DNA of 64,000 bases, taken from IMG/VR virus record IMGVR_UViG_3300025834_000005; one strand, written 5' to 3'. Position numbers and translations under genes: made by a program. Shown piece by piece: positions 922 to 63,980 of this stretch. The notes beneath the pieces are model-generated. The model did not search any database. It was not told where the DNA came from and worked only from the letters and a program-made list of their open reading frames with translations. The DNA comes from a virus. Numbering within the stretch: the stretch's first letter is position 1; the number at the start of each line of letters is the position of its first letter.

Positions 922-929
922 TACCTTTG
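922..929 (+). promoter_or_regulatory. host-type -7 box TACCTTTG
   Basis: 42 nt upstream of sigma-1 ATG 971; same octamer as 4176 and 750(-). Confidence 0.55.
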
Positions 930-970
930 TGAAGTTATTTAATGGGTTACAAACTTTAAATTATTATGTT

Positions 971-1525
971 ATGGAACAGTCAACTACTTCATTTGATGCG
1001 ATTTACAAACAGTACTATCGTGGTATTTTTCACTACATTAAAAAGGCAATGAGCTTGCAAGTGCCTATAACAGAGGAACTTACGAACGACGTGTTTATCA
1101 AGGTTTCCCAACACCTAAAAGATTATGATAAAGAGAAATCCGCTGTTTCCACATGGGTATATAATATAGCGAAGAACGTTGTAATTGATTATGTTCGTTC
1201 TGAGCGTCACCATGACAATCAGAAAACCAATCACATTCAAAATTATGTTAATTCCGATGGTATGTGTGAATTTGAAGTTGTTGCACCACGTGACAAAGAT
1301 ACCATATTCAGAACGGAAACAATGAATTCGATTTTATGTTCAATAGATAAACTCCGTGATAAGGAACGGCAAGTTGTTGAACATATTATTCTGGATGACT
1401 TATCGCAAGCCGAAGTCGCTGAAAAGCTGAACATAAGCGTAGGCAATGTAAAGGTGATCTATCTTCGGGCAAAGGAGAAGTTACGAATTATGTTAAAGAG
1501 CGATTACGAATTGGCTTGGAGTTAA
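971..1525 (+). CDS. ECF-type sigma-70 family factor, copy 1 (184 aa)
   Basis: Region 2-like WVYNIAKNVVIDYVR and region 4 HTH LSQAEVAEKLNISVGNVKVIYLRAKEKL; start trimmed from GTG 929 (inside TACCTTTG box) to ATG 971. Confidence 0.85.
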   Translation: MEQSTTSFDAIYKQYYRGIFHYIKKAMSLQVPITEELTNDVFIKVSQHLKDYDKEKSAVSTWVYNIAKNVVIDYVRSERHHDNQKTNHIQNYVNSDGMCEFEVVAPRDKDTIFRTETMNSILCSIDKLRDKERQVVEHIILDDLSQAEVAEKLNISVGNVKVIYLRAKEKLRIMLKSDYELAWS

Positions 1526-1604
1526 TCCAAGCCAATTGGCTTTACATAATGTTACAATGTATCATTTTTAATTAAAAACAGTATTCACTATCAATATTTA
1601 GGTT

Positions 1605-1757
1605 ATGTTAAAAATCATTTTTAATTTAAAAGCGTCTTCCGATAAGATTTTTGTATATGAGATTTTGGCTTTGCTTATGTTCATTGCATTCAGTTCCTGT
1701 ACTGCTCAACATAATGTACAGCATCGTAAAGCCGATAAAACCGAGCATCATTTTTAA
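1605..1757 (+). CDS. small lipoprotein-like protein (50 aa)
   Basis: Own translation MLKIIFNLKASSDKIFVYEILALLMFIAFSSCTAQHNVQH...; lipobox-like FSSC; resembles 2660..2872. Confidence 0.4.
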   Translation: MLKIIFNLKASSDKIFVYEILALLMFIAFSSCTAQHNVQHRKADKTEHHF

Positions 1758-1801
1758 TTAAAAACAGGATGCAACAATGTTCGTAAATAGTTCGGTATTG
1801 T

Positions 1802-1831
1802 TGTAACCTTTTACAATCATTCACGTATAAC
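1802..1831 (+). promoter_or_regulatory. ECF-sigma-type promoter (TGTAAC-N16-CGTATAAC repeat)
   Basis: Exact N16; next ATG 1846. Confidence 0.65.
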
Positions 1832-1845
1832 TAATAAATAGCACA

Positions 1846-1980
1846 ATGTTCAATATGGAATTATTCCGAGGTGGCGAAATTACTCAAATTGGTATGATAG
1901 TTTTCTTAATAGGTTTTGTTTTGATCTGTATAACAGCTGAGCGAATTACATACTTTATTAAGAAGCGAAAAAAGAAGTAG
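1846..1980 (+). CDS. small single-pass membrane protein (44 aa)
   Basis: Own translation MFNMELFRGGEITQIGMIVFLIGFVLICITAERITYFIKKRKKK; follows promoter 1802. Confidence 0.45.
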   Translation: MFNMELFRGGEITQIGMIVFLIGFVLICITAERITYFIKKRKKK

Positions 1981-2031
1981 CACAATGTTCGTTTTTAATT
2001 AAAACCAATGTACACAATGTTCGTTTTTTTT

Positions 2032-2061
2032 TGTAACCTTTATTTTTGATTTACGTATAAC
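2032..2061 (+). promoter_or_regulatory. ECF-sigma-type promoter (TGTAAC-N16-CGTATAAC repeat)
   Basis: Exact N16; next ATG 2079. Confidence 0.7.
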
Positions 2062-2078
2062 ATAGAAACAATCTTATT

Positions 2079-2339
2079 ATGGCACAGACACTGAACAAAA
2101 TCGCATCACGCCCATTGCACACAATCGCAAAGGAAATTAAATCGAATTGGTCAAAGGTTTACTTTGGTGCAGTCCCTTATCTTGAAGCAATGGGAACGCT
2201 ATCAACAATTGATCAGGATTATTATCAGGACAGCGCAAAGAGCATTGTACTATATTTCCTTAGCAACGCATCAACATGGCGTGGCGAAGTTGCTAAACGT
2301 ATCAAAACCGAGCTTAAAGCAATGTGCGGAATTAAGTAA
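2079..2339 (+). CDS. hypothetical protein (86 aa)
   Basis: ORF track; ATG just downstream of promoter 2032. Confidence 0.7.
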   Translation: MAQTLNKIASRPLHTIAKEIKSNWSKVYFGAVPYLEAMGTLSTIDQDYYQDSAKSIVLYFLSNASTWRGEVAKRIKTELKAMCGIK

Positions 2340-2365
2340 CATAAGCAAAACCAATGTACACTATC

Positions 2366-2608: not shown

Positions 2609-2638
2609 TGTAACCTTTTAAATCCAATTACGTATAAC
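2609..2638 (+). promoter_or_regulatory. ECF-sigma-type promoter (TGTAAC-N16-CGTATAAC repeat)
   Basis: Exact N16; next ATG 2660. Confidence 0.7.
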
Positions 2639-2908: not shown

Positions 2909-2937
2909 AACGAACATACACAATGTTCGTTTTTTTT
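2909..2937 (+). terminator. intrinsic terminator hairpin
   Basis: AACGAACAT / ATGTTCGTT stem, T-run, abuts promoter 2937. Confidence 0.65.
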
Positions 2938-2966
2938 GTAACCTTTATTTTCCATTTACGTATAAC
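2937..2966 (+). promoter_or_regulatory. ECF-sigma-type promoter (TGTAAC-N16-CGTATAAC repeat)
   Basis: Exact N16; next ATG 2982. Confidence 0.7.
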
Positions 2967-3495: not shown

Positions 3496-3529
3496 AAGGA
3501 CAATGTTCAAATAGCATTGTCCTTTTTTT
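3496..3529 (+). terminator. intrinsic terminator hairpin
   Basis: AAGGACAATG / CATTGTCCTT stem plus T7. Confidence 0.7.
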
Positions 3530-3558
3530 GTAACCTTTATTTTTCATTTACGTATAAC
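3529..3558 (+). promoter_or_regulatory. ECF-sigma-type promoter (TGTAAC-N16-CGTATAAC repeat)
   Basis: Exact N16; next ATG 3575. Confidence 0.7.
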
Positions 3559-4175: not shown

Positions 4176-4183
4176 TACCTTTG
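4176..4183 (+). promoter_or_regulatory. host-type -7 box TACCTTTG
   Basis: 28 nt upstream of sigma-2 ATG 4211. Confidence 0.55.
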
Positions 4184-4210
4184 TACCGTAAACAATTTAA
4201 ATAGGTTCTT

Positions 4211-4784: not shown

Positions 4785-4816
4785 CCCTGAGAAGTTGTAA
4801 CCTTTTCGGGGTTTTT
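4785..4816 (+). terminator. terminator hairpin with -35 TTGTAAC as loop
   Basis: CCCTGAGAAG / CTTTTCGGGG (2 G-U), T5. Confidence 0.6.
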
Positions 4817-4825
4817 ACGTATAAC
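4796..4825 (+). promoter_or_regulatory. ECF-sigma-type promoter (TGTAAC-N16-CGTATAAC repeat)
   Basis: Exact N16; -35 sits in hairpin loop; next ATG 4841. Confidence 0.7.
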
Positions 4826-5048: not shown

Positions 5049-5078
5049 TGTAACCTTTAAAAACCATTTACGTATAAC
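5049..5078 (+). promoter_or_regulatory. ECF-sigma-type promoter (TGTAAC-N16-CGTATAAC repeat)
   Basis: Exact N16; next ATG 5096. Confidence 0.7.
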
Positions 5079-5508: not shown

Positions 5509-5670
5509 ATGGCAGTAAAGAAAACAGGCAAAGCCGACGACTATGTGAAAGCTAATCGCAAGGGTTCAAGGTTGGCAGAGCTTGAGGACTCAACTGGCTG
5601 GGTATCAAAGAAGAAGATTCATAAATCTGTTAAAACGTATTCACGAAAAAATAAGGGCAATATCTTGTAA
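5509..5670 (+). CDS. small Lys-rich protein (53 aa)
   Basis: Own translation MAVKKTGKADDYVKANRKGSRLAELEDSTGW...; palindrome junction start; TAA stop inside TGTAAC. Confidence 0.5.
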   Translation: MAVKKTGKADDYVKANRKGSRLAELEDSTGWVSKKKIHKSVKTYSRKNKGNIL

Positions 5671-5695
5671 CCTTATTTTTTGGTTTACGTATAAC
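5666..5695 (+). promoter_or_regulatory. ECF-sigma-type promoter (TGTAAC-N16-CGTATAAC repeat)
   Basis: Exact N16; next ATG 5711. Confidence 0.7.
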
Positions 5696-6306: not shown

Positions 6307-6534
6307 ATGACAGAAAAAGAGCAATTAGCTATATCCTTAGCAAAGGAAATTAAGAGGAATGTACAGCGAATGCGAACAGAAATCAATCTGTATAAGAAAT
6401 GCTTATCGACTATCGTTTATCGCATGGATAACACAAAGAAAGGCATTTATGATTATGGCGAAGCAAGTGAAAGCACTATCGACGACATTAAAGAAATTAT
6501 TCAGGACTGTAATAATAAAGTGAGTTCGTTGTAA
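6307..6534 (+). CDS. hypothetical protein (75 aa)
   Basis: ORF track; palindrome junction; stop inside TGTAAC. Confidence 0.65.
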   Translation: MTEKEQLAISLAKEIKRNVQRMRTEINLYKKCLSTIVYRMDNTKKGIYDYGEASESTIDDIKEIIQDCNNKVSSL

Positions 6535-6559
6535 CCTTTTATTTTGGTTTACGTATAAC
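6530..6559 (+). promoter_or_regulatory. ECF-sigma-type promoter (TGTAAC-N16-CGTATAAC repeat)
   Basis: Exact N16; next ATG 6582. Confidence 0.7.
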
Positions 6560-6933: not shown

Positions 6934-6963
6934 TGTAACCTTTATTTTTCATTTACGTATAAC
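6934..6963 (+). promoter_or_regulatory. ECF-sigma-type promoter (TGTAAC-N16-CGTATAAC repeat)
   Basis: Exact N16; next ATG 6987. Confidence 0.7.
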
Positions 6964-7349: not shown

Positions 7350-7379
7350 TGTAACCTTTATTTTCCATTTACGTATAAC
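7350..7379 (+). promoter_or_regulatory. ECF-sigma-type promoter (TGTAAC-N16-CGTATAAC repeat)
   Basis: Exact N16; next ATG 7395. Confidence 0.7.
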
Positions 7380-7394: not shown

Positions 7395-7709
7395 ATGATC
7401 AATTATAATCAATCCGAATTAGAAAAGAAAGCCGTTACATTAGGTGCTACACATTTGAGGCACATATTTGTTGATGTGTCAATTTATGTCAGCTATACTC
7501 GATTGGAGGTTTTCTCTACTCATTTTTTTGATTCAAATGATAATGAGATTGGTTACTATATTGATTCATGCGGATTGGTCAGCTTATGCGGATTAACAAC
7601 GTTTGAGACCCCACGTGCTTGGTCACTCTTATTTAAAAACCATAGGTTAACAGGTAAACCCGTTGATTTTAAAACAAGATGTATTGTACAAAGTTCGTTT
7701 TCTTTGTAA
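7395..7709 (+). CDS. hypothetical protein (104 aa)
   Basis: ORF track; promoter 7350. Confidence 0.7.
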   Translation: MINYNQSELEKKAVTLGATHLRHIFVDVSIYVSYTRLEVFSTHFFDSNDNEIGYYIDSCGLVSLCGLTTFETPRAWSLLFKNHRLTGKPVDFKTRCIVQSSFSL

Positions 7710-7734
7710 CCTTTTATTTTGGTTTACGTATAAC
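7705..7734 (+). promoter_or_regulatory. ECF-sigma-type promoter (TGTAAC-N16-CGTATAAC repeat)
   Basis: Exact N16; next ATG 7762. Confidence 0.7.
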
Positions 7735-8252: not shown

Positions 8253-8282
8253 TGTAACCTTTTAAATTGATTTACGTATAAC
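8253..8282 (+). promoter_or_regulatory. ECF-sigma-type promoter (TGTAAC-N16-CGTATAAC repeat)
   Basis: Exact N16; next ATG 8306. Confidence 0.7.
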
Positions 8283-8553: not shown

Positions 8554-8583
8554 TGTAACCTTTTGAATTGATTTACGTATAAC
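8554..8583 (+). promoter_or_regulatory. ECF-sigma-type promoter (TGTAAC-N16-CGTATAAC repeat)
   Basis: Exact N16; next ATG 8612. Confidence 0.7.
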
Positions 8584-8992: not shown

Positions 8993-9022
8993 TGTAACCT
9001 TTTTATTTAATTTACGTATAAC
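8993..9022 (+). promoter_or_regulatory. ECF-sigma-type promoter (TGTAAC-N16-CGTATAAC repeat)
   Basis: Exact N16; next ATG 9038. Confidence 0.7.
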
Positions 9023-9037: not shown

Positions 9038-9499
9038 ATGAGATCAATAGAATATCTTGTTCAATTATTTCCTGATAAAACATGTAGAGAGATTCTGGCT
9101 ATTCAAACAGCAGATAAGCTCGAAGACGACATGAAGTATGAAAAGGTTAACAAAAAGAAGTTGAAGTTCATCGAAGATCATAATACCAATGGTGGATATT
9201 ATTGTGGTCGGTTCGGCAGTGACCAACGTTATTTCTATCGAGTTTTCAATATGAGAATGGAAGGCTCTGATATCTATATGGACGTTGAAACTTTGGTAGT
9301 CTTTATGAATCAGGAAGGCGTTAAACATCAGGTAACAAAAACTGGCGATGTTAGCGTGGAAAGGCGTACCAAAGTATGGCAGAAGGAAGACACTTACTGT
9401 TTGGAAAACAGGGAACGAGTAACAAAAAAAGAATGGGATGCTATTAATGATTATGTTAATAATCTGGCAAAGTTCTGGGATCATATCAAAAAAGTGTAA
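9038..9499 (+). CDS. hypothetical protein (153 aa)
   Basis: ORF track; promoter 8993. Confidence 0.75.
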   Translation: MRSIEYLVQLFPDKTCREILAIQTADKLEDDMKYEKVNKKKLKFIEDHNTNGGYYCGRFGSDQRYFYRVFNMRMEGSDIYMDVETLVVFMNQEGVKHQVTKTGDVSVERRTKVWQKEDTYCLENRERVTKKEWDAINDYVNNLAKFWDHIKKV

Positions 9500-9524
9500 C
9501 CTTTTTGATTCATTTACGTATAAC
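9495..9524 (+). promoter_or_regulatory. ECF-sigma-type promoter (TGTAAC-N16-CGTATAAC repeat)
   Basis: Exact N16; next ATG 9540. Confidence 0.7.
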
Positions 9525-9800: not shown

Positions 9801-9829
9801 GCCCCGAAAAGTTGTAACCTTTTTGGGGC
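9801..9829 (+). terminator. hairpin with -35 TTGTAAC as loop
   Basis: GCCCCGAAAAG / CTTTTTGGGGC. Confidence 0.6.
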
Positions 9830-9842
9830 ATTTGCGTATAAC
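9813..9842 (+). promoter_or_regulatory. ECF-sigma-type promoter (TGTAAC-N16-CGTATAAC repeat)
   Basis: Exact N16; -35 in hairpin loop; next ATG 9866. Confidence 0.7.
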
Positions 9843-10284: not shown

Positions 10285-10554
10285 ATGATGTACCCTAATA
10301 AGATTTTTACCTCAGAGGTTGTTATTGATAAAAACATATTCGGTGGAAAATCACATTTTGTGATTACCGTTGCTGCTCAAAATGCCATAGTCGCAAAACA
10401 ATATGTTAAGGAAAAGATTGGTATTGATGTTGAACCTCAATGGATTATGAATGCAGCCTATCCAACAATATACAATCAAACAGGTAGCACACCGTTAGCT
10501 GTTCAAGCTAAAATAATAGGCAATAATACCTTTCATACTGATTTTAATGTGTAA
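10285..10554 (+). CDS. hypothetical protein (89 aa)
   Basis: ORF track; palindrome junction. Confidence 0.65.
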   Translation: MMYPNKIFTSEVVIDKNIFGGKSHFVITVAAQNAIVAKQYVKEKIGIDVEPQWIMNAAYPTIYNQTGSTPLAVQAKIIGNNTFHTDFNV

Positions 10555-10579
10555 CCTTTTAATCTGATTTACGTATAAC
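10550..10579 (+). promoter_or_regulatory. ECF-sigma-type promoter (TGTAAC-N16-CGTATAAC repeat)
   Basis: Exact N16; next ATG 10602. Confidence 0.7.
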
Positions 10580-11168: not shown

Positions 11169-11198
11169 AAAAAGGTTACATTAGTTTGTAACCTTTTT
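11169..11198 (+). terminator. terminator whose 3' arm is the -35 element
   Basis: AAAAAGGTTACA / TGTAACCTTTTT perfect 12 bp. Confidence 0.7.
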
Positions 11199-11216
11199 GA
11201 TTCATTTACGTATAAC
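11187..11216 (+). promoter_or_regulatory. ECF-sigma-type promoter (TGTAAC-N16-CGTATAAC repeat)
   Basis: Exact N16; -35 is 3' arm of terminator; next ATG 11238. Confidence 0.7.
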
Positions 11217-12215: not shown

Positions 12216-12249
12216 AAAAAGGTTGCAATTAATTTTGTAACCTTTTTTT
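12216..12249 (+). terminator. terminator whose 3' arm is the -35 element
   Basis: AAAAAGGTTGCA / TGTAACCTTTTT (1 G-U) plus T-run. Confidence 0.65.
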
Positions 12250-12265
12250 ATGGTTTACGTATAAC
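12236..12265 (+). promoter_or_regulatory. ECF-sigma-type promoter (TGTAAC-N16-CGTATAAC repeat)
   Basis: Exact N16; -35 is 3' arm of terminator; next ATG 12281. Confidence 0.7.
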
Positions 12266-12875: not shown

Positions 12876-12905
12876 TGTAACCTTTATTTTCCATTTACGT
12901 ATAAC
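12876..12905 (+). promoter_or_regulatory. ECF-sigma-type promoter (TGTAAC-N16-CGTATAAC repeat)
   Basis: Exact N16; next ATG 12921. Confidence 0.7.
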
Positions 12906-13446: not shown

Positions 13447-13476
13447 TGTAACCTTTTGGATTCATTTACGTATAAC
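13447..13476 (+). promoter_or_regulatory. ECF-sigma-type promoter (TGTAAC-N16-CGTATAAC repeat)
   Basis: Exact N16; next ATG 13498. Confidence 0.7.
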
Positions 13477-13905: not shown

Positions 13906-13935
13906 TGTAACCTTTTTAAAGTATTTACGTATAAC
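13906..13935 (+). promoter_or_regulatory. ECF-sigma-type promoter (TGTAAC-N16-CGTATAAC repeat)
   Basis: Exact N16; no credible ORF for about 500 nt downstream. Confidence 0.7.
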
Positions 13936-50135: not shown

Positions 50136-50153
50136 AATATTCACATTATATCA

Positions 50154-53715: not shown

Positions 53716-53745
53716 TGTAACCTTTTCGATTCATTTACGTATAAT
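53716..53745 (+). promoter_or_regulatory. ECF-sigma-type promoter, variant -10 CGTATAAT
   Basis: Exact N16; next ATG 53764. Confidence 0.65.
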
Positions 53746-53932: not shown

Positions 53933-53962
53933 TGTAACATTTTTTAATAAATTACGTATAAT
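53933..53962 (+). promoter_or_regulatory. ECF-sigma-type promoter, variant TGTAACA / CGTATAAT
   Basis: Exact N16; next ATG 53980. Confidence 0.55.
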
Positions 53963-54351: not shown

Positions 54352-54908
54352 TGAATATTCTCAAACTATCACAGATTCGTAAGCCATTAAACTTTAAGGT
54401 TCAAATGGGAATCAGCATGGATATACATGATATGATTGATGGTCATTATGGGGACGTTATGGATTTTGATGTTTATTTACCGACAAAAGGAATGAATCTA
54501 CAACGTCCTTTGGTTTGGTCTGATGAACAGAAACAGGAATTTGTTATCTCAGTACTGAAAGGTATTGAGGTAGCATCTATTTCTGTCATAATTTATAGGG
54601 ATGATACCTTGAATAGTAATCATACTCGTCTCATTAAAGTTATTGATGGTAAGCAGAGAATAACAACGCTTATGTCCTTCATTCAAAATGAGTTTCCATT
54701 AGTCATTAATGGCGATAAGTATTTCTATAACGATATGGAAGATATAGCTAAGTCTGTTCTCAGATCATTTTGGTTTAGGAGTAACAGAGTTTATGAATAC
54801 CCTGACAAACTGATTTCAGATGATGATAAGATCGCTTGGTTTGAAATGATTAACTTTTCTGGAACACCACAAGATGTTGCTCACTTAAATAATTTGAAAA
54901 AAGTGTAA
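54351..54908 (+). CDS. DUF262 (ParB-like) protein, copy 2 (185 aa)
   Basis: NLQRPLVW and VIDGKQRITTLMSF; WFEMINFSGTPQ. Confidence 0.65.
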   Translation: MNILKLSQIRKPLNFKVQMGISMDIHDMIDGHYGDVMDFDVYLPTKGMNLQRPLVWSDEQKQEFVISVLKGIEVASISVIIYRDDTLNSNHTRLIKVIDGKQRITTLMSFIQNEFPLVINGDKYFYNDMEDIAKSVLRSFWFRSNRVYEYPDKLISDDDKIAWFEMINFSGTPQDVAHLNNLKKV

Positions 54909-54933
54909 CCTTTTGAATCCATCTACGTATAGC
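54904..54933 (+). promoter_or_regulatory. ECF-sigma-type promoter, variant -10 CGTATAGC
   Basis: Exact N16; next ATG 54957. Confidence 0.6.
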
Positions 54934-56271: not shown

Positions 56272-56685
56272 ATGAAAGCATTTAAAGCATGGATTAATCA
56301 TCTGGTATTAAAATATGTCGGAAGAATTGAATATGTCGTCACATCAGTTCATGTAAGTGGAAGCGTTGATGTCGGAAATTACAGCACATTAAAAGACGTT
56401 AATGCGTTTGTGAATGACATTAATACTGACAGGTATTGGGACGTCCAGAAAATAGAAAAGTTCAGAAGATATGATTTCAAATATCATAAGGAAGTTTTAC
56501 ATTCGCCAATGCACTTTCGTATTGAAAATGTGACTGAAATGGAAACACTCAACACTTATGCTTTTTGTTTTTTACTGAAACATAAAAGCTTAACAAACAC
56601 TCGCCGTGTTAGTTCGAAGAATGCTATAGACGAAGAAACCTTCCTGAATAAAGATTTCAGCGAGGTTACCAACCAATTTTTGTAA
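56272..56685 (+). CDS. hypothetical protein (137 aa)
   Basis: ORF track; stop inside TGTAAC. Confidence 0.7.
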   Translation: MKAFKAWINHLVLKYVGRIEYVVTSVHVSGSVDVGNYSTLKDVNAFVNDINTDRYWDVQKIEKFRRYDFKYHKEVLHSPMHFRIENVTEMETLNTYAFCFLLKHKSLTNTRRVSSKNAIDEETFLNKDFSEVTNQFL

Positions 56686-56710
56686 CCTTTTTATTTCATT
56701 TACGTATAAC
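56681..56710 (+). promoter_or_regulatory. ECF-sigma-type promoter (TGTAAC-N16-CGTATAAC repeat)
   Basis: Exact N16; next ATG 56725. Confidence 0.7.
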
Positions 56711-57782: not shown

Positions 57783-57800
57783 GTTGTAACCTTATTTGTC
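57774..57800 (+). terminator. hairpin with -35 TTGTAAC as loop
   Basis: GACAAATAAG / CTTATTTGTC perfect 10 bp. Confidence 0.6.
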
Positions 57801-57814
57801 GTTTTTCGTATAAC
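57785..57814 (+). promoter_or_regulatory. ECF-sigma-type promoter (TGTAAC-N16-CGTATAAC repeat)
   Basis: Exact N16; -35 in loop of perfect 10-bp hairpin; next ATG 57831. Confidence 0.7.
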
Positions 57815-57830: not shown

Positions 57831-58112
57831 ATGAAAAATTCAAAGACAGTTGTTAAAGGCGATAAGACTTTTGTTTACACCTTAGTTAAAGGTGCTATAA
57901 AGGAACATGACTTTGTGGTATCTAAACGTTACTTCGAACTGATGGATGAAAACGGAATGTTTTTAGCTCGAATCATAGACAGACTATGTCCCATTGAAAT
58001 CATTGAGGTAAAAATGTATAACGGAGAATTAGCAGCTAATTGGTATATTGGAGAATCATTAACAAAACGATGTTCAATTGTGAACGTTGAAATATTGCAC
58101 AATAAACTGTAA
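57831..58112 (+). CDS. hypothetical protein (93 aa)
   Basis: ORF track; promoter 57785. Confidence 0.7.
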   Translation: MKNSKTVVKGDKTFVYTLVKGAIKEHDFVVSKRYFELMDENGMFLARIIDRLCPIEIIEVKMYNGELAANWYIGESLTKRCSIVNVEILHNKL

Positions 58113-58137
58113 CCTTTATATTTCATTTACGTATAAC
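58108..58137 (+). promoter_or_regulatory. ECF-sigma-type promoter (TGTAAC-N16-CGTATAAC repeat)
   Basis: Exact N16; next ATG 58153. Confidence 0.7.
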
Positions 58138-59602: not shown

Positions 59603-59632
59603 TGTAACCTTTTTATCTCATTTACGTATAAC
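59603..59632 (+). promoter_or_regulatory. ECF-sigma-type promoter (TGTAAC-N16-CGTATAAC repeat)
   Basis: Exact N16; next ATG 59651. Confidence 0.7.
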
Positions 59633-60434: not shown

Positions 60435-61105
60435 ATAATATGCTTGACGATGTTATCGAAATAAAAGATCACAGGCTGAACCCTTTGGATATCATAATAC
60501 TGATTTTATCTATATATGTGCTTGGCGTTGTGGTTATTGACACATTATGGGTGTTACCAGCAGAAATATCGAGACTATTAAGTTATATCGACAACATAAT
60601 ATGCGTTGTGTTTTTTTATGACTTCGTAACAAACTTTCGTAAAGCGAAGAATAAATTAAAGTTTATGCGATTAGGTTGGATTGATCTACTATCGTGTATA
60701 CCTATGGTTGATTACTTACGTGCTGGTAGAATGCTTAGACTTATACGATTAATTCGTGTTGTGAGAGCATTTAAGACCACCAATCATTTAGTTAATCACA
60801 TCTTTGCCAATAAATCAAAAGGTGCTCTAACGTCTGTCTTTGTCGTAGCAATGCTATTTGTATTATTCTCAGCGATAGCGATTCTTGAAGTTGAGAACGA
60901 CCCTAATAGTAACATAAAAACTGCCGAGGATGCTATTTGGTGGGCGTATGTTACTGTTACAACTGTTGGGTATGGTGATAAATTTCCAGTAACAACAGAG
61001 GGCAGAGTTATTGCAGCAGCTTTAATGACCGTAGGCGTAGGCTTATTCGGTACATTCACCGCATATATTTCATCATTATTTGTAACTAATAGTAAAAATC
61101 CGTAA
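60431..61105 (+). CDS. compact voltage-gated-type potassium channel (224 aa)
   Basis: Selectivity filter TVTTVGYGD; S4-like RAGRMLRLIRLIRVVRAFK; S3-like GWIDLLSCIP; hydrophobic S1, S2, S5, S6. Confidence 0.85.
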   Translation: MNNMLDDVIEIKDHRLNPLDIIILILSIYVLGVVVIDTLWVLPAEISRLLSYIDNIICVVFFYDFVTNFRKAKNKLKFMRLGWIDLLSCIPMVDYLRAGRMLRLIRLIRVVRAFKTTNHLVNHIFANKSKGALTSVFVVAMLFVLFSAIAILEVENDPNSNIKTAEDAIWWAYVTVTTVGYGDKFPVTTEGRVIAAALMTVGVGLFGTFTAYISSLFVTNSKNP

Positions 61106-61130
61106 CATTTTATAATTAGTTACGTATAAC
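61101..61130 (+). promoter_or_regulatory. ECF-sigma-type promoter, variant -35 CGTAACA
   Basis: Exact N16; next ATG 61146. Confidence 0.55.
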
Positions 61131-61869: not shown

Positions 61870-61870
61870 T

Positions 61871-61900
61871 TGTAACCTTTCGACATTATTTACGTATAAC
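61871..61900 (+). promoter_or_regulatory. ECF-sigma-type promoter (TGTAAC-N16-CGTATAAC repeat)
   Basis: Exact N16; next ATG 61919. Confidence 0.7.
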
Positions 61901-61918
61901 TTAAAAAAATTAATCATT

Positions 61919-62227
61919 ATGAATTACAGAAACATTCAATCAGGTCACATTATCAGCGAAAGCTACTGGCGCAAATTGCCTTTATGCAAACAACGCACAT
62001 TCACATCAACCTTCGCTGAACCAACACATACCATTTCCGAAAGCGGTGACGACGGAAGTTCTGATGGTATGGGTATATTCACAACACTGCTTATCGCTGA
62101 TGCTTTAAGTGATTCTGGCAGCATGTTCGGAAGTTCCGACATGGGTTCAAGCGATTCGGGTTCGAGTTCATCTTTTGATTTCGGTGGTGGAGATTTCGGT
62201 GGCGGTGGTGCTGGTGGTGACTTTTAA
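61919..62227 (+). CDS. protein with Gly/Ser/Asp-rich C-terminal tail (102 aa)
   Basis: GSSDMGSSDSGSSSSFDFGGGDFGGGGAGGDF; promoter 61871. Confidence 0.65.
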   Translation: MNYRNIQSGHIISESYWRKLPLCKQRTFTSTFAEPTHTISESGDDGSSDGMGIFTTLLIADALSDSGSMFGSSDMGSSDSGSSSSFDFGGGDFGGGGAGGDF

Positions 62228-62233
62228 TTAAAA

Positions 62234-62491
62234 ATGAAAAAAGCATTATTTGTTTTGGCATTCCTTACAATATGTATTGGAATGCCTGTTTTTACCTCTT
62301 ATGTATCTGGCTCAGACACTTATAGAAAATTCGATATCCTTGAATATAAAGGATGTAAAGTAATGGGTAAGATTAAGGAAGGTAATGAAGATTGGGATTG
62401 GTACGTGCTAAAGAATAACACAACAGCTAAATTAGTGCAAGTGCCCTCATGGTTTGGTATGGTATATAATATAGGAGATAGTATAAAATAA
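62234..62491 (+). CDS. secreted or membrane-anchored small protein (85 aa)
   Basis: N-terminal MKKALFVLAFLTICIGMPVF. Confidence 0.65.
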   Translation: MKKALFVLAFLTICIGMPVFTSYVSGSDTYRKFDILEYKGCKVMGKIKEGNEDWDWYVLKNNTTAKLVQVPSWFGMVYNIGDSIK

Positions 62492-62506
62492 ACAAACATA
62501 TAAATA

Positions 62507-63034
62507 ATGTTTAAGAATCAACTAAATAAGTGTTATAAAACGGAAGACGGCGAGTTATGGCTATCACGAAGCGTTGCTGTTGTCGGCGTTATATTTGCTG
62601 TTACCGATAATTTCTCTATGAAAGTATTAACCTTAAAAAGGTCAGCAACAATGATCGATAAACCAAATCGTTGGTGTTTACCATGTGGCTATCTGGATTG
62701 GAATGAAACACTTGAAGAAGCTGTTGAGCGTGAGGTATATGAAGAAACAGGATTCTTAATGCGTGATCACAGTAAACAGTTACTCAGAGATATGCCTTAT
62801 TTTCATATTAATTCAGATCATACTAAATCCAATAGGCAGAATGTGTCTATCTCATTTGCGAAGGTGTATATGTTTGAAACACTTCCTGAACTTGTGTTAA
62901 ATGAAGAAGTAAGCGAACTCGCATGGACACCTATCAATGAAGCAAGCTTAAAAGCATTGGATTTAACATTTGGTCATTATGACTTAGTTACTGCCGTTCA
63001 AAAAGAAATTAATCGTACAAACTTTACAAGATAA
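62507..63034 (+). CDS. Nudix hydrolase (175 aa)
   Basis: Complete Nudix box GYLDWNETLEEAVEREVYEETGF. Confidence 0.85.
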   Translation: MFKNQLNKCYKTEDGELWLSRSVAVVGVIFAVTDNFSMKVLTLKRSATMIDKPNRWCLPCGYLDWNETLEEAVEREVYEETGFLMRDHSKQLLRDMPYFHINSDHTKSNRQNVSISFAKVYMFETLPELVLNEEVSELAWTPINEASLKALDLTFGHYDLVTAVQKEINRTNFTR

Positions 63035-63038
63035 TATT

Positions 63039-63275
63039 ATGTTTGAATCAAAAGAAGAATTATTAATGGCAATTCAAAGATGCTTGCCATATGCAGATCA
63101 GATTCAGAAACTTGACTTTTCAACGAGCAGCAATTCTATATCATTTGTGTGGCGATGTGAGCATTTCAAAATAGATTTAAGCGGACAAGTTGGAGTAATC
63201 GATGATGGCTGCATTGTGTATTCAAGTATATGTATTATATTTAGAGAACTTTTAAGGCGAGAATGGCTGAAATAA
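63039..63275 (+). CDS. hypothetical protein (78 aa)
   Basis: ORF track. Confidence 0.6.
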   Translation: MFESKEELLMAIQRCLPYADQIQKLDFSTSSNSISFVWRCEHFKIDLSGQVGVIDDGCIVYSSICIIFRELLRREWLK

Positions 63276-63311
63276 TTTGTTTAAGGTATTTATAATAAAA
63301 AGTAAATTATT

Positions 63312-63947
63312 ATGAATCTAACGAACATAATCGAAGGATGCCTTAATGAGATTTATCCTGTATCTTTCGATATGAAGGAGTTTAATAGCATTAAATCATT
63401 TGCAAAAAAAGCTAAGTATTGCGCAGAAAGATTACAAAGAATTTCATCAGGCTCTGGTAGGATTGTCTATAAGATTGACGACGAAAAGGTTATAAAACTT
63501 GCTAAAAACCTTAAAGGAATAGCACAGAATGAAACCGAATCAGATCAATACATTCAGACAAATTACAGCGAAGTGGTTGCCAAGTGCTATGATTGGGACG
63601 ATGCCAATAATTTCTGGCTTGAAATGGAATTGGCTCGTAAGATGAATGCCAATGATTTTAAACGTATTGTAGGCTATCCACTTAACGGCGAGAACTCTAT
63701 TGAAGCATGGTTAACCAAAGTGGTTGATAAAACATCAAGATATAGAATATCACCAGAAGTGATGGAAGTATTAAATGAATCAGAATTCACATATGCTTTA
63801 CATGATTTAGTCGGTAGTTATAGTATGCAAAAAGGTGACTTTTTTAAATTAAACTCGTGGGGTAAAGTATTAAGAGACGGTAAAGAAGCAGCGGTGTTAA
63901 TTGACTTTGGCTTAAGTGAGAATGTTTGGAAAGAATATTACTCATAA
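63312..63947 (+). CDS. protein-kinase-like fold protein (211 aa)
   Basis: Gly-loop SSGSGRIVYK, VIKLAK lysine, GDFFKLNSWG (catalytic D..N-like), LIDFGLS (DFG). Confidence 0.5.
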   Translation: MNLTNIIEGCLNEIYPVSFDMKEFNSIKSFAKKAKYCAERLQRISSGSGRIVYKIDDEKVIKLAKNLKGIAQNETESDQYIQTNYSEVVAKCYDWDDANNFWLEMELARKMNANDFKRIVGYPLNGENSIEAWLTKVVDKTSRYRISPEVMEVLNESEFTYALHDLVGSYSMQKGDFFKLNSWGKVLRDGKEAAVLIDFGLSENVWKEYYS

Positions 63948-63950
63948 ATC

Positions 63951-63980
63951 TGTAACCTTTATTTACTAATTACGTATTTA
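63951..63980 (+). promoter_or_regulatory. ECF-sigma-type promoter, variant -10 CGTATTTA
   Basis: Exact N16; ATG at 63998 begins a gene cut by window end. Confidence 0.55.

What the first reader, a model, noticed from the sequence alone, without database searches (positions are those of the whole stretch)
922..63980. Two phage-encoded ECF-type sigma factors plus a 68-copy, rigidly spaced TGTAAC-N16-CGTATAAC promoter regulon
Seen in the sequence:
- There are 68 plus-strand copies of TGTAAC-N16-CGTA(TAAC). 67 have exactly a 16-nt spacer and one has N15.
- Each copy lies 35-64 nt (mostly 44-53) upstream of the next ATG.
- Density is about one per 0.9 kb overall, and one per 0.6 kb between 1.8 and 21.5 kb.
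- Two paralogous ~180-aa proteins (971-1525 and 4211-4753) show only sigma-70 region 2 and region 4 signatures.

Established knowledge: ECF sigma promoters carry AAC in the -35 element and CGT in the -10 element, 16-17 nt apart. Bacillus subtilis SigW, TGAAAC-N16-CGTA, is an example.

Inference:
- The phage brings its own ECF-like sigma factor(s) to retarget host core RNA polymerase onto this regulon.
- Neither sigma gene carries the repeat. Both sit behind TACCTTTG (Bacteroidetes TAnnTTTG -7 type) boxes, which suggests a host-sigma to phage-sigma cascade.
- Whether the two sigmas divide the regulon between them is open.
Basis: partly seen in the sequence, partly recalled or inferred. Interest (0 to 1): 0.85.

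Follow-up and report, generated by a model that had tools for sequence, protein, structure and literature searches.

The report
Jumbo-phage ECF sigma promoter regulon
A roughly 328-kb uncultured phage of Bacteroidota carries two small ECF-type sigma factors, followed by at least 73 near-identical promoters of the kind such sigmas read; it most likely redirects the host RNA polymerase onto its many small genes, which is a known phage strategy seen here at unusual scale in an unstudied phage group.

Summary
The window holds 65 exact TGTAAC-N15/16-CGTA sites plus 3 CGTAAC variants. All 68 are on the + strand (0.42 expected by chance), and 67 have a 16-nt spacer. The sites belong to a ~40-nt cassette (about 54 bits) that ends 21-26 nt before a start codon in 46 of 68 copies.

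Both ~180-aa proteins pass curated sigma-70/ECF thresholds. Their best solved relative is B. subtilis SigW.

The window lies in a ~328-kb phage contig. The promoter array begins right after sigma-1, is absent from the 10 kb upstream, and continues past the window. Related phage contigs show the same layout in 4 of 4 genomes.

The same motif sits upstream of rpoD-like and queA genes across Bacteroidota, so it is a native ECF-type promoter class of the host phylum.

Conserved TAnnTTTG-type boxes precede both sigma genes here and in an orthologous phage.

At the residue known to set the -34 base, sigma-1 has Val, as do three bacterial ECF sigmas that sit behind the same motif. Sigma-2 has Gly.

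This is a new member of a known kind (phage-encoded ECF sigma plus cognate promoters). No transcription data exist.

The parts
748..757 (-). Host sigmaA-type -7 box (TACCTTTGTA) for the leftward DUF932 gene; divergent from the sigma-1 promoter
922..929 (+). Host sigmaA-type -7 box TACCTTTG upstream of sigma-1; a TTAYCTTTGT box sits at the same place in the L017 ortholog
946..961 (+). GGTTACAAACTTTAAA in the sigma-1 leader, an inverted copy of the -35 element; a near-identical GGTTACAAATTTAAAA occupies the same place in L017 (function unknown)
971..1525 (+). Sigma-1: 184-aa ECF-type sigma factor with K171/V172/D84 (RpoE numbering)
1605..1757 (+). 50-aa lipoprotein-like ORF after sigma-1, with no repeat copy between them; conserved after the sigma-1 ortholog in L017 (role unknown)
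4176..4185 (+). Host sigmaA-type -7 box TACCTTTGTA upstream of sigma-2; conserved as TATCTTTGTA in L017 and L114
4211..4753 (+). Sigma-2: 180-aa ECF-type sigma factor with K171/G172/D84; 63-67% identical to its L017 ortholog
23372..23379 (-). Host-type -7 box TACTTTTG for the - strand HAD-like gene 22715-23347
23468..23477 (+). Host-type -7 box TATCTTTGTA for gene 23512-24024; part of an island without the repeat that separates the two leader blocks
1802..1831 (+). ECF-type promoter copy 1
2032..2061 (+). ECF-type promoter copy 2
2609..2638 (+). ECF-type promoter copy 3
2937..2966 (+). ECF-type promoter copy 4 (terminator-like hairpin just upstream)
3529..3558 (+). ECF-type promoter copy 5 (last copy before sigma-2; read-through could reach sigma-2)
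4796..4825 (+). ECF-type promoter copy 6 (-35 lies in the loop of a GC-rich hairpin)
5049..5078 (+). ECF-type promoter copy 7
5666..5695 (+). ECF-type promoter copy 8
6530..6559 (+). ECF-type promoter copy 9
6934..6963 (+). ECF-type promoter copy 10
7350..7379 (+). ECF-type promoter copy 11
7705..7734 (+). ECF-type promoter copy 12
8253..8282 (+). ECF-type promoter copy 13
8554..8583 (+). ECF-type promoter copy 14
8993..9022 (+). ECF-type promoter copy 15
9495..9524 (+). ECF-type promoter copy 16
9813..9842 (+). ECF-type promoter copy 17 (-35 in hairpin loop)
10550..10579 (+). ECF-type promoter copy 18
11187..11216 (+). ECF-type promoter copy 19 (-35 is the 3' arm of a terminator-like hairpin)
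12236..12265 (+). ECF-type promoter copy 20 (-35 is the 3' arm of a terminator-like hairpin)
12876..12905 (+). ECF-type promoter copy 21
13447..13476 (+). ECF-type promoter copy 22
13906..13935 (+). ECF-type promoter copy 23; followed by ~450 nt without an ORF (candidate ncRNA)
14473..14502 (+). ECF-type promoter copy 24 (-35 is the 3' arm of a terminator-like hairpin)
14933..14962 (+). ECF-type promoter copy 25
15613..15642 (+). ECF-type promoter copy 26
16180..16209 (+). ECF-type promoter copy 27
17090..17119 (+). ECF-type promoter copy 28
17663..17692 (+). ECF-type promoter copy 29
18189..18218 (+). ECF-type promoter copy 30 (-35 in hairpin loop; ATG only 13 nt after the C of CGTA)
18627..18656 (+). 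ECF-type promoter copy 31; followed by a ~90-nt GC-richer unit (short ORF or sRNA)
18748..18777 (+). ECF-type promoter copy 32 (drives the GP88-family gene)
20323..20352 (+). ECF-type promoter copy 33
20784..20813 (+). ECF-type promoter copy 34
21431..21460 (+). ECF-type promoter copy 35 (last copy of leader block A)
24042..24071 (+). ECF-type promoter copy 36 (first copy of leader block B)
24439..24468 (+). ECF-type promoter copy 37
26004..26033 (+). ECF-type promoter copy 38
26583..26612 (+). ECF-type promoter copy 39 (drives the ParB/GmrSD_N-like gene)
27481..27510 (+). ECF-type promoter copy 40 (hairpin overlaps -35)
29963..29992 (+). ECF-type promoter copy 41 (hairpin overlaps -35)
31310..31339 (+). 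ECF-type promoter copy 42 (hairpin overlaps -35)
31601..31630 (+). ECF-type promoter copy 43 (CGTAAC variant)
32154..32183 (+). ECF-type promoter copy 44
33565..33594 (+). ECF-type promoter copy 45
34766..34795 (+). ECF-type promoter copy 46 (hairpin overlaps -35)
36728..36757 (+). ECF-type promoter copy 47 (strongest overlapping hairpin, -26.5 kcal/mol)
38422..38451 (+). ECF-type promoter copy 48
39739..39768 (+). ECF-type promoter copy 49
41528..41557 (+). ECF-type promoter copy 50 (CGTAAC variant)
42817..42846 (+). ECF-type promoter copy 51 (drives the glucosaminidase-domain gene)
43556..43585 (+). ECF-type promoter copy 52 (followed by a 12-nt tandem repeat, then the RNA ligase gene)
44939..44968 (+). 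ECF-type promoter copy 53
45253..45282 (+). ECF-type promoter copy 54; followed by a tRNA-like element instead of an ORF
46165..46194 (+). ECF-type promoter copy 55 (operon with the ATP-dependent DNA ligase gene)
49483..49512 (+). ECF-type promoter copy 56
50172..50200 (+). ECF-type promoter copy 57 (the single N15 spacer; hairpin overlaps -35)
51654..51683 (+). ECF-type promoter copy 58
53716..53745 (+). ECF-type promoter copy 59
53933..53962 (+). ECF-type promoter copy 60
54904..54933 (+). ECF-type promoter copy 61
56681..56710 (+). ECF-type promoter copy 62 (hairpin overlaps -35)
57785..57814 (+). ECF-type promoter copy 63 (-35 in hairpin loop)
58108..58137 (+). ECF-type promoter copy 64
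59603..59632 (+). ECF-type promoter copy 65
61101..61130 (+). ECF-type promoter copy 66 (CGTAAC variant)
61871..61900 (+). ECF-type promoter copy 67
63951..63980 (+). ECF-type promoter copy 68 (its gene starts at the window edge; seen whole in L002)

Best explanation
The window is the small-gene (early/middle) arm of a ~328-kb uncultured jumbo phage that infects a member of the Bacteroidota.

Proposed sequence of events:
1. On infection, host RNA polymerase carrying the host primary sigma starts at TAnnTTTG-type -7 boxes. From these it transcribes a few phage genes, including the two ECF-type sigma factors (971-1525 and 4211-4753).
2. A phage sigma then binds host core polymerase and directs it to the 68 cassettes in the window (at least 73 in the genome). 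The cassette consensus is tTGTAACCTTTt-N8-aTTTACGTATAACATAGAAA.
3. Each cassette drives one to a few small + strand genes, or in three or four cases a non-coding unit.

Within the cassette, TGTAAC is the -35 element, the following T-tract is the ECF spacer element, and CGTA is the -10 element. Transcription is predicted to start about 6-9 nt after CGTA, inside the conserved CATAGAAA. That would leave an A-rich leader of only about 10-15 nt, with no Shine-Dalgarno sequence.

Sigma-1 heads the array and has Val at the residue that sets the -34 base. It is the more likely factor to impose the strict TGTAAC. Sigma-2 (Gly at that residue) can probably use the same promoters, and may take over from or reinforce sigma-1.

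The promoter type is native to the host phylum, so the host's own ECF sigma could also read these promoters, and the phage sigmas could switch on host genes such as rpoD and queA.

Shown by computation: the motif statistics, the sigma family membership, and the conservation and co-location in relatives. Inferred: the cascade, the start sites and the assignment of the two sigmas.
For: Motif:
- 68 + strand copies against 0.42 expected, none on the - strand, and a rigid 16-nt spacer in 67.
- About 54 bits of information over about 40 nt.
- 64 of 68 copies are followed at their first ATG by an ORF of at least 30 aa, against 38% for controls. The modal distance is 23 nt.

Sigmas:
- Pfam r2 and r4_2 only, and TIGR02937 at 100 and 87 bits against a cutoff of 42.9.
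- The best solved relative is B. subtilis SigW (5wuq, E = 3e-13). Its promoters read tGAAACnTTTt...CGTA (PMC5758882).

The motif is read by cellular polymerase:
- TGTAACCTTT-N12-CGTATAA hit at least 120 stretches of bacterial genomes. About 79% of the listed ones are Bacteroidota.
- 21 hits lie in front of a 287-aa RpoD-like sigma gene and 11 in front of queA.
- This parallels the ECF-type SM6 'CGT box' motif of Flavobacterium psychrophilum (PMC9723704).

Link between sigma and array:
- No copy lies in the 10 kb upstream of sigma-1, the first copy is 277 nt after it, and 5 more lie in the 10 kb beyond the window.
- The same layout holds in 4 of 4 related genomes.
- L017 keeps both sigma orthologs in the same order, with 13-23 copies of the same core.
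- L005, whose sigma is 41% identical, has the motif in front of an ortholog of the gene at 2079.

Host-type promoters for the sigma genes: TTAYCTTTGT boxes are conserved in front of both sigma genes in the window and L017, and in L114.

Bacteroidota-like translation: 0 of 141 gene starts have a Shine-Dalgarno-like sequence, and the leaders are A-rich.

Sigma-1 assignment:
- Residue 172 (RpoE numbering) determines the -34 base (PMC7776599).
- Sigma-1-type proteins and three unrelated bacterial ECF sigmas that sit behind the same motif all have Val172 and Asp84.
- Genomes with a Val172 sigma have T at -34 in 67/67, 13/13, 23/23, 4/4 and 2/2 promoters. Genomes where only Gly/Ala172 sigmas were seen have T 29, A 11, C 3, G 2.
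Against: - There are no transcription data of any kind. Start sites, timing and dependence on either sigma are inferred.
- Only about 85 kb of the ~328-kb genome could be read, so a phage RNA polymerase, further sigma genes or a second promoter class elsewhere cannot be excluded.
- Because the motif is a native host promoter class, a host ECF sigma could suffice.
- The Val172/T(-34) association rests on few, phylogenetically related genomes, on three bacterial examples whose autoregulation is assumed from position, and on partial loci that may hide other sigma genes.
- Sigma-2 is better conserved than sigma-1 (63-67% against 41% identity with L017). This could equally argue that sigma-2 is the constrained promoter reader.
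- Neither sigma gene is autoregulated from the motif in the window, which is unlike about half of cellular ECF sigmas.
- No anti-sigma factor was identified.
- TAnnTTTG as such is not enriched in the window.
Confidence: 0.78

Rival explanations
1. The cassettes are ECF-type promoters, but a host ECF sigma reads them: the one that serves the same motif upstream of rpoD and queA in Bacteroidota. The two phage sigmas would then serve another promoter class elsewhere in the genome, or act as decoys or competitors.
For: The identical motif is a phylum-wide host promoter class, so a cognate host sigma must exist. Neither phage sigma gene is autoregulated from the motif. About 245 kb of the genome was not seen.
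Against: Host ECF sigmas are normally held inactive by anti-sigma factors (established knowledge), which makes them a poor basis for 70+ phage promoters. In 4 of 4 phage genomes the array starts directly after a phage sigma gene. Phage sigma-1 shares Val172/Asp84 with bacterial sigmas that sit behind this motif, and the -34 base follows the phage sigma type. No second promoter class was found in the 85 kb read.
Confidence: 0.12
2. Sigma-2, not sigma-1, is the reader of the TGTAAC regulon. Sigma-1 would have a different or narrower target, for example a handful of very early genes or a late class outside the window.
For: Sigma-2 is much better conserved between phages that share the same promoter core (63-67% against 41%). 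Sigma-2-type proteins (Gly172) are the only sigmas seen in the L091, L131 and L217 genomes, which are full of TGTAAC promoters. Sigma-2 also sits downstream of the repeat promoter at 3529, so it could be amplified by the regulon.
Against: The array begins at sigma-1, not at sigma-2: five promoters precede sigma-2 in the window, and six repeat copies lie between the two sigma orthologs in L017. Val172 matches three independent bacterial sigmas associated with TGTAAC. Genomes with only Gly/Ala172 sigmas tolerate A, C or G at -34, whereas the window has T in all 67 promoters, as expected if a Val172 sigma constrains them.
Confidence: 0.2
3. The cassette is the promoter of a phage-encoded RNA polymerase, single- or multi-subunit, encoded outside the window. 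The resemblance to ECF promoters would then be coincidental.
For: Many jumbo phages carry their own polymerases with highly conserved promoters (PMC7824862). Most of the genome is unseen. At 54 bits the cassette is more conserved than typical sigma promoters.
Against: The motif is bipartite, with a variable 8-9-nt gap and a rigid 16-nt spacing, unlike the contiguous promoters of T7-like single-subunit polymerases (established knowledge, not tested here). The same motif drives housekeeping genes in bacterial chromosomes that have no phage polymerase. In the published survey, jumbo phages that carry sigma factors lack polymerase genes. No polymerase-like gene lies in the 85 kb read.
Confidence: 0.04
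4. The repeats are not promoters. They would be binding sites for another DNA-binding protein (for example the three ParB/GmrSD_N-like proteins), recombination sites, or a small mobile repeat.
For: Three ParB-like proteins are encoded in the window. A 46-nt stretch of the cassette is 96% identical in otherwise unrelated metagenomic contigs, which hints at spread by recombination.
Against: All copies are co-oriented with the genes. In most copies they sit at a fixed 21-26 nt before start codons, lie in intergenic DNA, and match the ECF promoter grammar position by position. The motif also occurs singly upstream of rpoD and queA in bacteria.
Confidence: 0.03

Closest known systems
ECF-like sigma gp36 of coliphage phiEco32 and the sigma of Salmonella phage 7-11, with their conserved middle/late promoters (PMC4331800)
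   Same: A lytic phage encodes a small ECF-family sigma. That sigma redirects host core RNA polymerase from host-sigma early promoters to a set of highly conserved phage promoters. The promoters can be found by comparing intergenic regions.
   Different: Sequence relation is only distant: a phiEco32-like Cronobacter phage sigma is 26% identical (E = 1e-5). Those phages are about 77 kb and have few promoter copies ('low copy numbers'). Here there are two sigma paralogs, at least 73 copies in about 75 kb of a ~328-kb genome, a Bacteroidota host, and a promoter identical to a native host class.
Bacillus subtilis ECF sigmas SigW (TGAAAC-N16-CGTA) and relatives, including the T-tract next to the -35 (PMC5758882)
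   Same: SigW is the best solved-structure relative of sigma-1 (5wuq, E = 3e-13). The promoter grammar matches: xGxAAC, then CTTTT, then a 16-nt spacer, then CGTA(TA). The residues aligned with RpoE 171 and 84 are the same (Lys and Asp).
   Different: The -35 has T where SigW promoters have A (-34). Residue 172 is Val (sigma-1) or Gly (sigma-2) instead of Thr. There is no anti-sigma partner and no autoregulation. NCBIfam SigW equivalog scores are far below cutoff (58-64 bits for sigma-1 and 51-54 for sigma-2, against 209-243). The sigmas are phage-borne in a different phylum.
Native Bacteroidota ECF-type promoters (Flavobacterium psychrophilum SM6 'CGT box' regulon, PMC9723704; and the motif found here upstream of rpoD-like and queA genes)
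   Same: The consensus TGTAACCTTT-N12-CGTATAA is identical and occurs in the same phylum. A Band-7/HflK-like gene is among the targets both here (L135) and in SM6.
   Different: In bacteria the motif occurs once per locus in front of housekeeping or envelope genes, and the cognate host sigma is unidentified. In the phage it is multiplied 70-fold and extended by a conserved downstream leader.
Sigma cascades of large phages (T4 gp55/gp33, SPO1 gp28 and gp33/34) and the sigma-bearing 'group 2' jumbo phages (PMC7824862)
   Same: Phage-encoded sigma factors appropriate the host core polymerase. Jumbo phages with sigma factors tend to lack their own polymerase.
   Different: Those sigmas are either minimal single-domain proteins or RpoD-like proteins, not two-domain ECF proteins. 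Their promoters lack the ECF -35/-10 grammar, which is my own knowledge and was not tested here.

Membership tests
ECF (group 4) sigma-70 family | Contains sigma regions 2 and 4 only, with no region 1.1 or region 3 | tested here: met
   Both proteins hit Pfam Sigma70_r2 and Sigma70_r4_2/r4 above cutoff and have no r3 or r1 hits. Their lengths are 184 and 180 aa.
ECF (group 4) sigma-70 family | Scores above the curated threshold of a family model | tested here: met
   TIGR02937 sigma70-ECF scores 100.2 and 87.2 bits against a cutoff of 42.9. No subfamily or equivalog model reaches its cutoff, so the ECF subgroup is unassigned.
ECF (group 4) sigma-70 family | Cognate promoters have AAC in the -35, CGT in the -10 and a 16-17-nt spacer | tested here: met
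   The 68 copies read TGTAAC-N16-CGTA, with a T-tract next to the -35 (grammar from PMC5758882). The link between sigma and promoter is inferred from position and co-variation, not measured.
ECF (group 4) sigma-70 family | Co-transcribed anti-sigma factor (frequent, not universal) | tested here: inconclusive
   No known anti-sigma domain was seen. A conserved 49-50-aa lipoprotein-like ORF follows sigma-1 in the window and in L017, and a 35-aa membrane ORF follows the L005 sigma. Their roles are unknown.
ECF (group 4) sigma-70 family | Autoregulation from its own promoter type (about half of ECF sigmas) | tested here: not met
   Neither sigma gene has the repeat directly upstream; both have TAnnTTTG-type boxes. 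In the relatives L005 and L091 a GAAAC-N16-CGTAAAC site does precede the sigma gene.
B. subtilis SigW equivalog | Scores above the SigW equivalog cutoff | tested here: not met
   For sigma-1, NF007223 scores 64.5 against 209 and TIGR02948 scores 58.4 against 243. Sigma-2 scores 54.3 and 51.5. The proteins resemble SigW but are not members.
phiEco32 gp36-type phage ECF sigma system | Phage-encoded ECF-like sigma plus a conserved phage-specific promoter class, with host-sigma early promoters for the sigma gene | tested here: met
   The phage context is supported by PHROG hits, by IMG/VR relatives and by a Cellulophaga-phage ligase as nearest cultured relative. See also the motif and the host-type boxes. 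This matches at the level of architecture only.
phiEco32 gp36-type phage ECF sigma system | Orthology of the sigma to gp36 | tested here: not met
   The best phiEco32-like hit (Cronobacter phage GAP52) is 25.9% identical at E = 1e-5. crAss-like phage sigmas are slightly closer, at 26-30%.
Functional promoter | Primary transcript 5' ends downstream of the -10 element, dependent on the sigma | not testable with these tools
   No transcriptome or biochemical data are available for this uncultured phage.

The most novel reading that the evidence does not exclude
The phage has not evolved a private promoter. It has copied the recognition sequence of a phylum-wide Bacteroidota ECF regulon, the one that includes the primary sigma gene rpoD and queA, and it carries two captured or diverged sigmas of that specificity.

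This would make infection and the host ECF response mutually readable:
- The host's own ECF sigma could fire all 70+ phage promoters as soon as it is released.
- The phage sigmas could switch on host rpoD, queA and envelope genes.
- The sigma-1 (Val172, strict for T at -34) and sigma-2 (Gly172, relaxed) pair could form a timed hand-over on one promoter class.

A related possibility is that the 46-nt promoter-plus-leader cassette itself spreads between unrelated phages by recombination.
Probability: 0.25. Interest if true: 0.75.

Novelty: new member of a known kind. Interest (0 to 1): 0.55.

Why it matters
1. It gives a concrete, testable transcription programme for a widespread but uncultured group of large Bacteroidota phages. 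Related contigs of 200-360 kb in IMG/VR carry the same motif.

2. A compact, Shine-Dalgarno-free promoter-plus-leader cassette (about 40 conserved nt) with a candidate cognate 180-aa sigma would be a useful orthogonal expression switch for Bacteroidota. Standard promoters do not work in that phylum.

3. The side result is of interest in itself. The same motif precedes rpoD-like and queA genes across Bacteroidota, which points to a conserved host ECF regulon whose sigma has not been named.

4. The natural Val/Gly difference at the residue that sets the -34 base, together with the strict versus relaxed -34 base in the respective genomes, offers a natural experiment on the published ECF specificity code.

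Tried and rejected
- Near-identity search of the first 20 kb against GenBank phages found nothing. tblastn of both sigmas against phages gave only distant hits of 30% identity or less.
- A strict 38-nt cassette pattern in IMG/VR gave no hits. A looser 16-base pattern worked.
- tRNA and Rfam scans of the window at default thresholds found nothing. Permissive Rfam scans of the three non-coding units found nothing credible.
- A generic sigma-70 (TTGACA/TATAAT) scan showed no enrichment: 90 found against 90.9 expected. I rejected reading CGTATAAT as a sigma-70 -10 element, because the spacing to a TTGTAA -35 would be 19 nt and Bacteroidota sigmaA does not use these boxes.
- The generic terminator scan was not enriched overall, with 9 found against 9.6 expected. 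The terminator-promoter overlap holds only for a subset of about 15-20%.
- TAnnTTTG alone is not enriched. Only the extended TAYYTTTGTA is (12 against 2.45), and most of those sites lie on the - strand inside genes, possibly through coding bias.
- A search for a second ECF-like promoter class (GAAAC-N16-CGTA) found none in the window.
- A scan of bacterial genomes for the phage CRISPR repeat, meant to name the host, found nothing.
- The metagenome-contig scan returned only three unrelated contigs that share the cassette.
- The search for related loci with a broad sigma alignment failed, and the narrower alignments added no new genomes. The co-variation test therefore stays small.
- The supplementary specificity tables of PMC7776599 are not held, so no published rule could be checked for which -34 base a given residue 172 prefers.
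- Cellulophaga phage phi17:2, the closest cultured relative by DNA ligase, has no motif in its first 50 kb.
- I could not walk further along the 328-kb contig, because only window-encoded proteins can be looked up.

Full report
OBSERVATION

The pattern TGTAAC-N15..17-CGTA occurs 65 times in the window. All copies are on the + strand and none on the - strand, against 0.42 expected from dinucleotide-preserving shuffles. A one-mismatch scan adds three copies that begin CGTAAC, at 31601, 41528 and 61101. It shows that 67 of the 68 copies have a 16-nt spacer and one, at 50172, has 15.

Aligned on CGTA, the copies form a much longer cassette: tTGTAACCTTTt-N8-aTTTACGTATAACATAGAAA. It carries about 54 bits of information, spread from 23 nt upstream to about 15 nt downstream of the C of CGTA. 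CGTATAAC is present in 59 of 68 copies and TGTAACCTTT in 59 of 68.

The first ATG lies 21-26 nt after the C of CGTA in 46 of 68 copies (mode 23, range 10-43). It opens an ORF of at least 30 aa in 64 of 68 copies, against 38% for random positions. Copies are denser in 1.8-21.5 kb (35 copies) than in 24-64 kb (33 copies). The two blocks differ only at three positions of the presumably transcribed leader: AGAAACAAAC in the first block, AGAAAATAT in the second.

THE TWO PROTEINS

Both proteins hit Pfam Sigma70_r2 and Sigma70_r4_2 above the gathering score and have no region 3 or region 1.1 hit. Both exceed the curated cutoff of TIGR02937 (sigma70-ECF), at 100 and 87 bits against 42.9. No subfamily or equivalog model is reached. 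They are 32% identical to each other. The best solved relative of sigma-1 is B. subtilis SigW (5wuq, E = 3e-13). They are therefore ECF-type sigma factors of no named subgroup.

WHAT THE ELEMENT IS

The window comes from a 328,453-bp metagenomic contig. A second assembly of 328,334 bp has a different start point, which suggests a complete circular or permuted genome.

The window encodes about 140 small + strand genes. Those with assignable families look like phage genes:
- ATP-dependent DNA ligase (phrog_114, 299 bits)
- RNA ligase
- a GP88-family protein
- ParB/GmrSD_N-like proteins
- a MazG-like protein, a NUDIX protein and a glucosaminidase-domain protein
.

The closest cultured relatives by DNA ligase are Cellulophaga (Flavobacteriaceae) phages, at 46.5% identity. 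Nothing similar at the DNA level, or closely similar at the sigma level, exists in GenBank phages.

None of 141 + strand gene starts has a Shine-Dalgarno-like sequence, and the leaders are A-rich. This is the translation-initiation style of Bacteroidota (PMC7366714 and PMC9723704).

IS THE REPEAT A PROMOTER OF THE ECF TYPE?

Its grammar is that of ECF promoters: xxAAC at -35, a T-tract immediately after the -35, a 16-nt spacer and CGTA at -10. Helmann's group describes tGAAACnTTTt...CGTA for SigW-type promoters and shows that the T-tract is a functional element (PMC5758882).

The decisive new evidence came from scanning one genome per bacterial species for TGTAACCTTT-N12-CGTATAA. About four fifths of the listed records are Bacteroidota, from Flavobacteriales, Bacteroidales, Sphingobacteriales, Cytophagales and Saprospiraceae. 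Each locus has one copy. The first ORF downstream is repeatedly the same gene:
- 21 times a 287-aa protein whose best NCBIfam matches are the RpoD models. This fits the short RpoD-like primary sigma of the phylum.
- 11 times QueA, which passes the equivalog cutoff.
.

A Band-7/HflK-like gene is also among the targets. This echoes the ECF-type 'SM6' regulon mapped by 5'-end sequencing in Flavobacterium psychrophilum (PMC9723704).

The motif is therefore a native promoter class of the host phylum, read by cellular RNA polymerase with an ECF-type sigma. This all but excludes the ideas that it is a phage-polymerase promoter or a non-promoter repeat. It also independently supports a Bacteroidota host.

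LINK BETWEEN THE PHAGE SIGMAS AND THE ARRAY

- The 10 kb upstream of sigma-1 contain no copy. The first copy is 277 nt after the sigma-1 stop codon. Five more copies lie in the 10 kb beyond the window, one of them directly in front of a Cas3 operon.
- A pattern scan of IMG/VR found more than 111 stretches. Many come from contigs of 200-360 kb and carry several strand-consistent copies.
- In the four related genomes where a sigma homologue lies in the fetched DNA, the array again starts just downstream of the sigma gene, with nothing on that strand in the 10 kb before it.
- One relative (L017/L243/L244) keeps both sigma orthologues in the same order (41% and 63-67% identity), the same intervening genes, and 13-23 copies of TGTAACCTTTTT...CGTATAAT. 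Its leader, CTTAAACAAAC, is different but conserved within that genome.
- A 4.6-kb contig (L005) whose sigma is 41% identical to sigma-1 has the motif in front of an orthologue of the window gene at 2079.

HOW THE SIGMA GENES ARE EXPRESSED

Both sigma genes are preceded by TTACCTTTG(T) boxes 35-49 nt before the ATG. The bare pattern TAnnTTTG is not enriched in the window. However, the boxes are conserved as TTAYCTTTGT at the orthologous positions in L017 and L114. The same extended box serves the divergent leftward gene (748-757) and a repeat-free island at 22.6-23.5 kb. TAnnTTTG is the -7 element of the Bacteroidota primary sigma (PMC7366714). A cascade from host sigmaA to the phage sigmas to the repeat promoters is thus the simplest reading, but it remains an inference.

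WHICH SIGMA READS THE ARRAY?

There is a single promoter class, so a division of this regulon between the two sigmas is unlikely. Todor et al. showed experimentally that the residues aligned with E. coli RpoE R171, S172 and N84 set the -31, -34 and -12/-13 bases (PMC7776599).

In my alignment:
- All phage sigmas have Lys171 and Asp84, as does SigW. This fits the shared AAC and CGTA.
- Sigma-1-type proteins (window, L017a, L005, L114) have Val172.
- Sigma-2-type proteins (window, L017b, L091, L131, L217) have Gly172.
- L023, L024 and L096 have Ala172.
- Three unrelated bacterial ECF sigmas that sit directly behind TGTAACCTTT-N12-CGTATAA (L128, L199, L231) all have Val172.

The -34 base per genome points the same way:
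- Genomes in which a Val172 sigma is seen have T at -34 in 67/67, 13/13, 23/23, 4/4 and 2/2 promoters.
- Genomes where only Gly/Ala172 sigmas were seen have T 29, A 11, C 3 and G 2.

I conclude, with moderate confidence, that sigma-1 imposes the strict TGTAAC and that sigma-2-type proteins can use TGTAAC as well but less strictly. Both may therefore read the array, perhaps in succession: sigma-2 also lies downstream of the repeat promoter at 3529. The caveats are few and related genomes, partial loci, and bacterial autoregulation assumed from position alone.

ANATOMY OF A UNIT

The transcription start is predicted 6-9 nt after CGTA, inside the conserved CATAGAAA. With the modal spacing this leaves a leader of only about 10-15 nt (inference).

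In a subset of copies, a terminator-like hairpin of the upstream unit uses the -35 element as its 3' arm, for example AAAAGGTTACA-N6-TGTAACCTTTT at 11187, 14473 and 50172. In others the -35 sits in the loop (4796, 9813, 18189, 57785). An inverted GGTTAY lies within 30 nt upstream in 10 of 68 copies, against 2.4% background. Hairpins of -14 kcal/mol or stronger occur in 19% of copies, against 7% of random windows. The T-tract would thus serve both as terminator tail and as promoter spacer element.

Three or four copies drive non-coding units.

COMPARISON WITH KNOWN SYSTEMS

Phage-encoded ECF-like sigmas with conserved cognate promoters are known from phiEco32 (gp36) and phage 7-11 (PMC4331800). 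Sigma-bearing jumbo phages that lack their own polymerase have been surveyed (PMC7824862). I found no paper describing this motif in phages or upstream of rpoD in Bacteroidota within the searchable library.

The present case works like the phiEco32 system but is not orthologous to it (26% identity). It differs in five ways:
- host phylum
- genome size
- two sigma paralogs
- copy number (at least 73, against a handful)
- use of a native host promoter class

I file it as a new member of a known kind.

LIMITS

About 85 kb of the ~328-kb genome could be read. There are no transcription data.

Noticed in passing
L002:13714-19451 (about 3-9 kb downstream of the window end, same phage): The phage carries a CRISPR-Cas locus: Cas3 (HD+DEAD, 758 aa), a Cas7fv-like protein, a 277-aa protein and Cas6. 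It is followed by an array of about 10 repeats with a 66-bp period (about 36-nt repeat GTGGTATATAATTCGATTCTAAAGGGAATCACAAC, in two repeat variants). A copy of the ECF-type promoter at L002:13714 sits directly in front of cas3. The repeat was not found in any of the 185,579 species representative genomes.
   Followed up: partly
L119-L238 (bacterial genomes): TGTAACCTTT-N12-CGTATAA is a conserved promoter-like motif upstream of the RpoD-like primary sigma gene (21 loci) and of queA (11 loci) across many Bacteroidota families. It also precedes Band-7/HflK-like and thioredoxin-like genes. This implies a phylum-wide ECF regulon that includes the housekeeping sigma; I found no description of it.
   Followed up: partly
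window 13975-14430: A non-coding stretch of about 450 nt lies downstream of promoter copy 23 and has no ORF. It folds better than shuffled sequence (-103 against -90 kcal/mol, z = -2.7). It has no Rfam match. This is a candidate phage ncRNA.
   Followed up: partly
window 45287-45440: A tRNA-like element follows promoter copy 54. It has an acceptor stem GGGAGTG/CACTTTC and a T-arm GGTTCGATTCC. ARAGORN calls it only at a relaxed threshold, as tRNA-Ile(aat) with a 64-nt insertion. It is not found at default settings and not by Rfam.
   Followed up: partly
window 18655-18745 and 43607-43647: Two further promoter copies are not followed by a normal gene. One precedes a ~90-nt GC-richer unit, which could be a 21-30-aa ORF or an sRNA and shows no structure signal. 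The other precedes a 12-nt tandem repeat (GTAAACGATGCT x3.4) upstream of the RNA ligase gene.
   Followed up: partly
window 11169-11198, 12216-12247, 14456-14483, 36700-36745, 50150-50185 and others: Terminator-like hairpins use the -35 element TGTAACCTTTT as their 3' arm, or hold TGTAAC in the loop (4796, 9813, 18189, 57785). One T-tract could therefore end the upstream transcript and also serve the next promoter. GGTTAY lies within 30 nt upstream in 10 of 68 copies, against 2.4% background.
   Followed up: yes
window 946-961; L017 about 7590-7605: The leader of sigma-1 contains GGTTACAAACTTTAAA, an inverted copy of the -35 element, between the host-type -7 box and the ATG. A near-identical element occupies the same place in the L017 ortholog. 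It could be an operator or feedback site.
   Followed up: no
window 1605-1757; L017:8245-8394; L005:4264-4371: A conserved 49-50-aa lipoprotein-like ORF (MLKIIFNL..., with a lipobox-like FSSC/LTSC) immediately follows the sigma-1-type gene in two phages. A 35-aa membrane ORF follows the sigma in a third. It might be a regulator of the sigma; no family hit was sought.
   Followed up: no
window 1775, 1983, 2015, 2593, 2921: A short repeat (A)CAATGTTCG occurs five times in the first 1.2 kb after sigma-1, four of them 16-27 nt upstream of a promoter copy. In L017 the same element (GCACAATGTTCG) is fused into the promoter spacer. It may be part of terminator stems or an operator.
   Followed up: no
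window 21.5-24 kb boundary: The conserved leader after the -10 switches from AGAAACAAAC (35 copies, 1.8-21.5 kb) to AGAAAATAT (33 copies, 24-64 kb). The switch falls at a repeat-free island that has host-type promoters and the only sizeable - strand gene (HAD-like, 22715-23347). This suggests two blocks evolving in concert.
   Followed up: partly
L005:3322 and L091:7258(-): In two relatives the sigma gene has an N-terminal extension of about 45-60 aa. It is preceded not by a TAnnTTTG box but by (T/C)GAAAC-N16-CGTAAAC, an ECF-like site that may mean autoregulation.
   Followed up: partly
L001:7506-7939 (about 1.1-1.5 kb upstream of the window start): An odd G-rich stretch (...GGGAGGGGGGTCTGAGGGGGGGGGGTGGTGGGGAGGG...) lies in a 430-nt gap between converging gene blocks in an otherwise 33% GC genome. 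It could be a genome terminus, a packaging region or an assembly artefact.
   Followed up: no
L240-L242 (JGI metagenome contigs): A 46-nt stretch of the promoter cassette is 96% identical to window 8252-8297 in contigs that otherwise share no detectable DNA similarity with the window. The cassette is either under very strong constraint or is exchanged between phages.
   Followed up: partly
window, - strand: 7746, 10806, 14692, 27351, 37615, 39224, 39548, 45658, 57253: The extended host-type box TAYYTTTGTA is over-represented (12 found, 2.45 expected). Nine of the twelve lie antisense inside + strand genes. They could be antisense promoters or a by-product of coding bias.
   Followed up: no
L186 and L131 (GTDB records labelled Paceibacterota / Patescibacteria MAGs): L186 comes from a 362,763-bp contig, the same length as IMG/VR contig 3300029288_000055, and carries the motif. 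L131 comes from a 17-kb contig with a sigma-2-like gene and the motif. Both appear to be phage contigs binned into bacterial MAGs.
   Followed up: no
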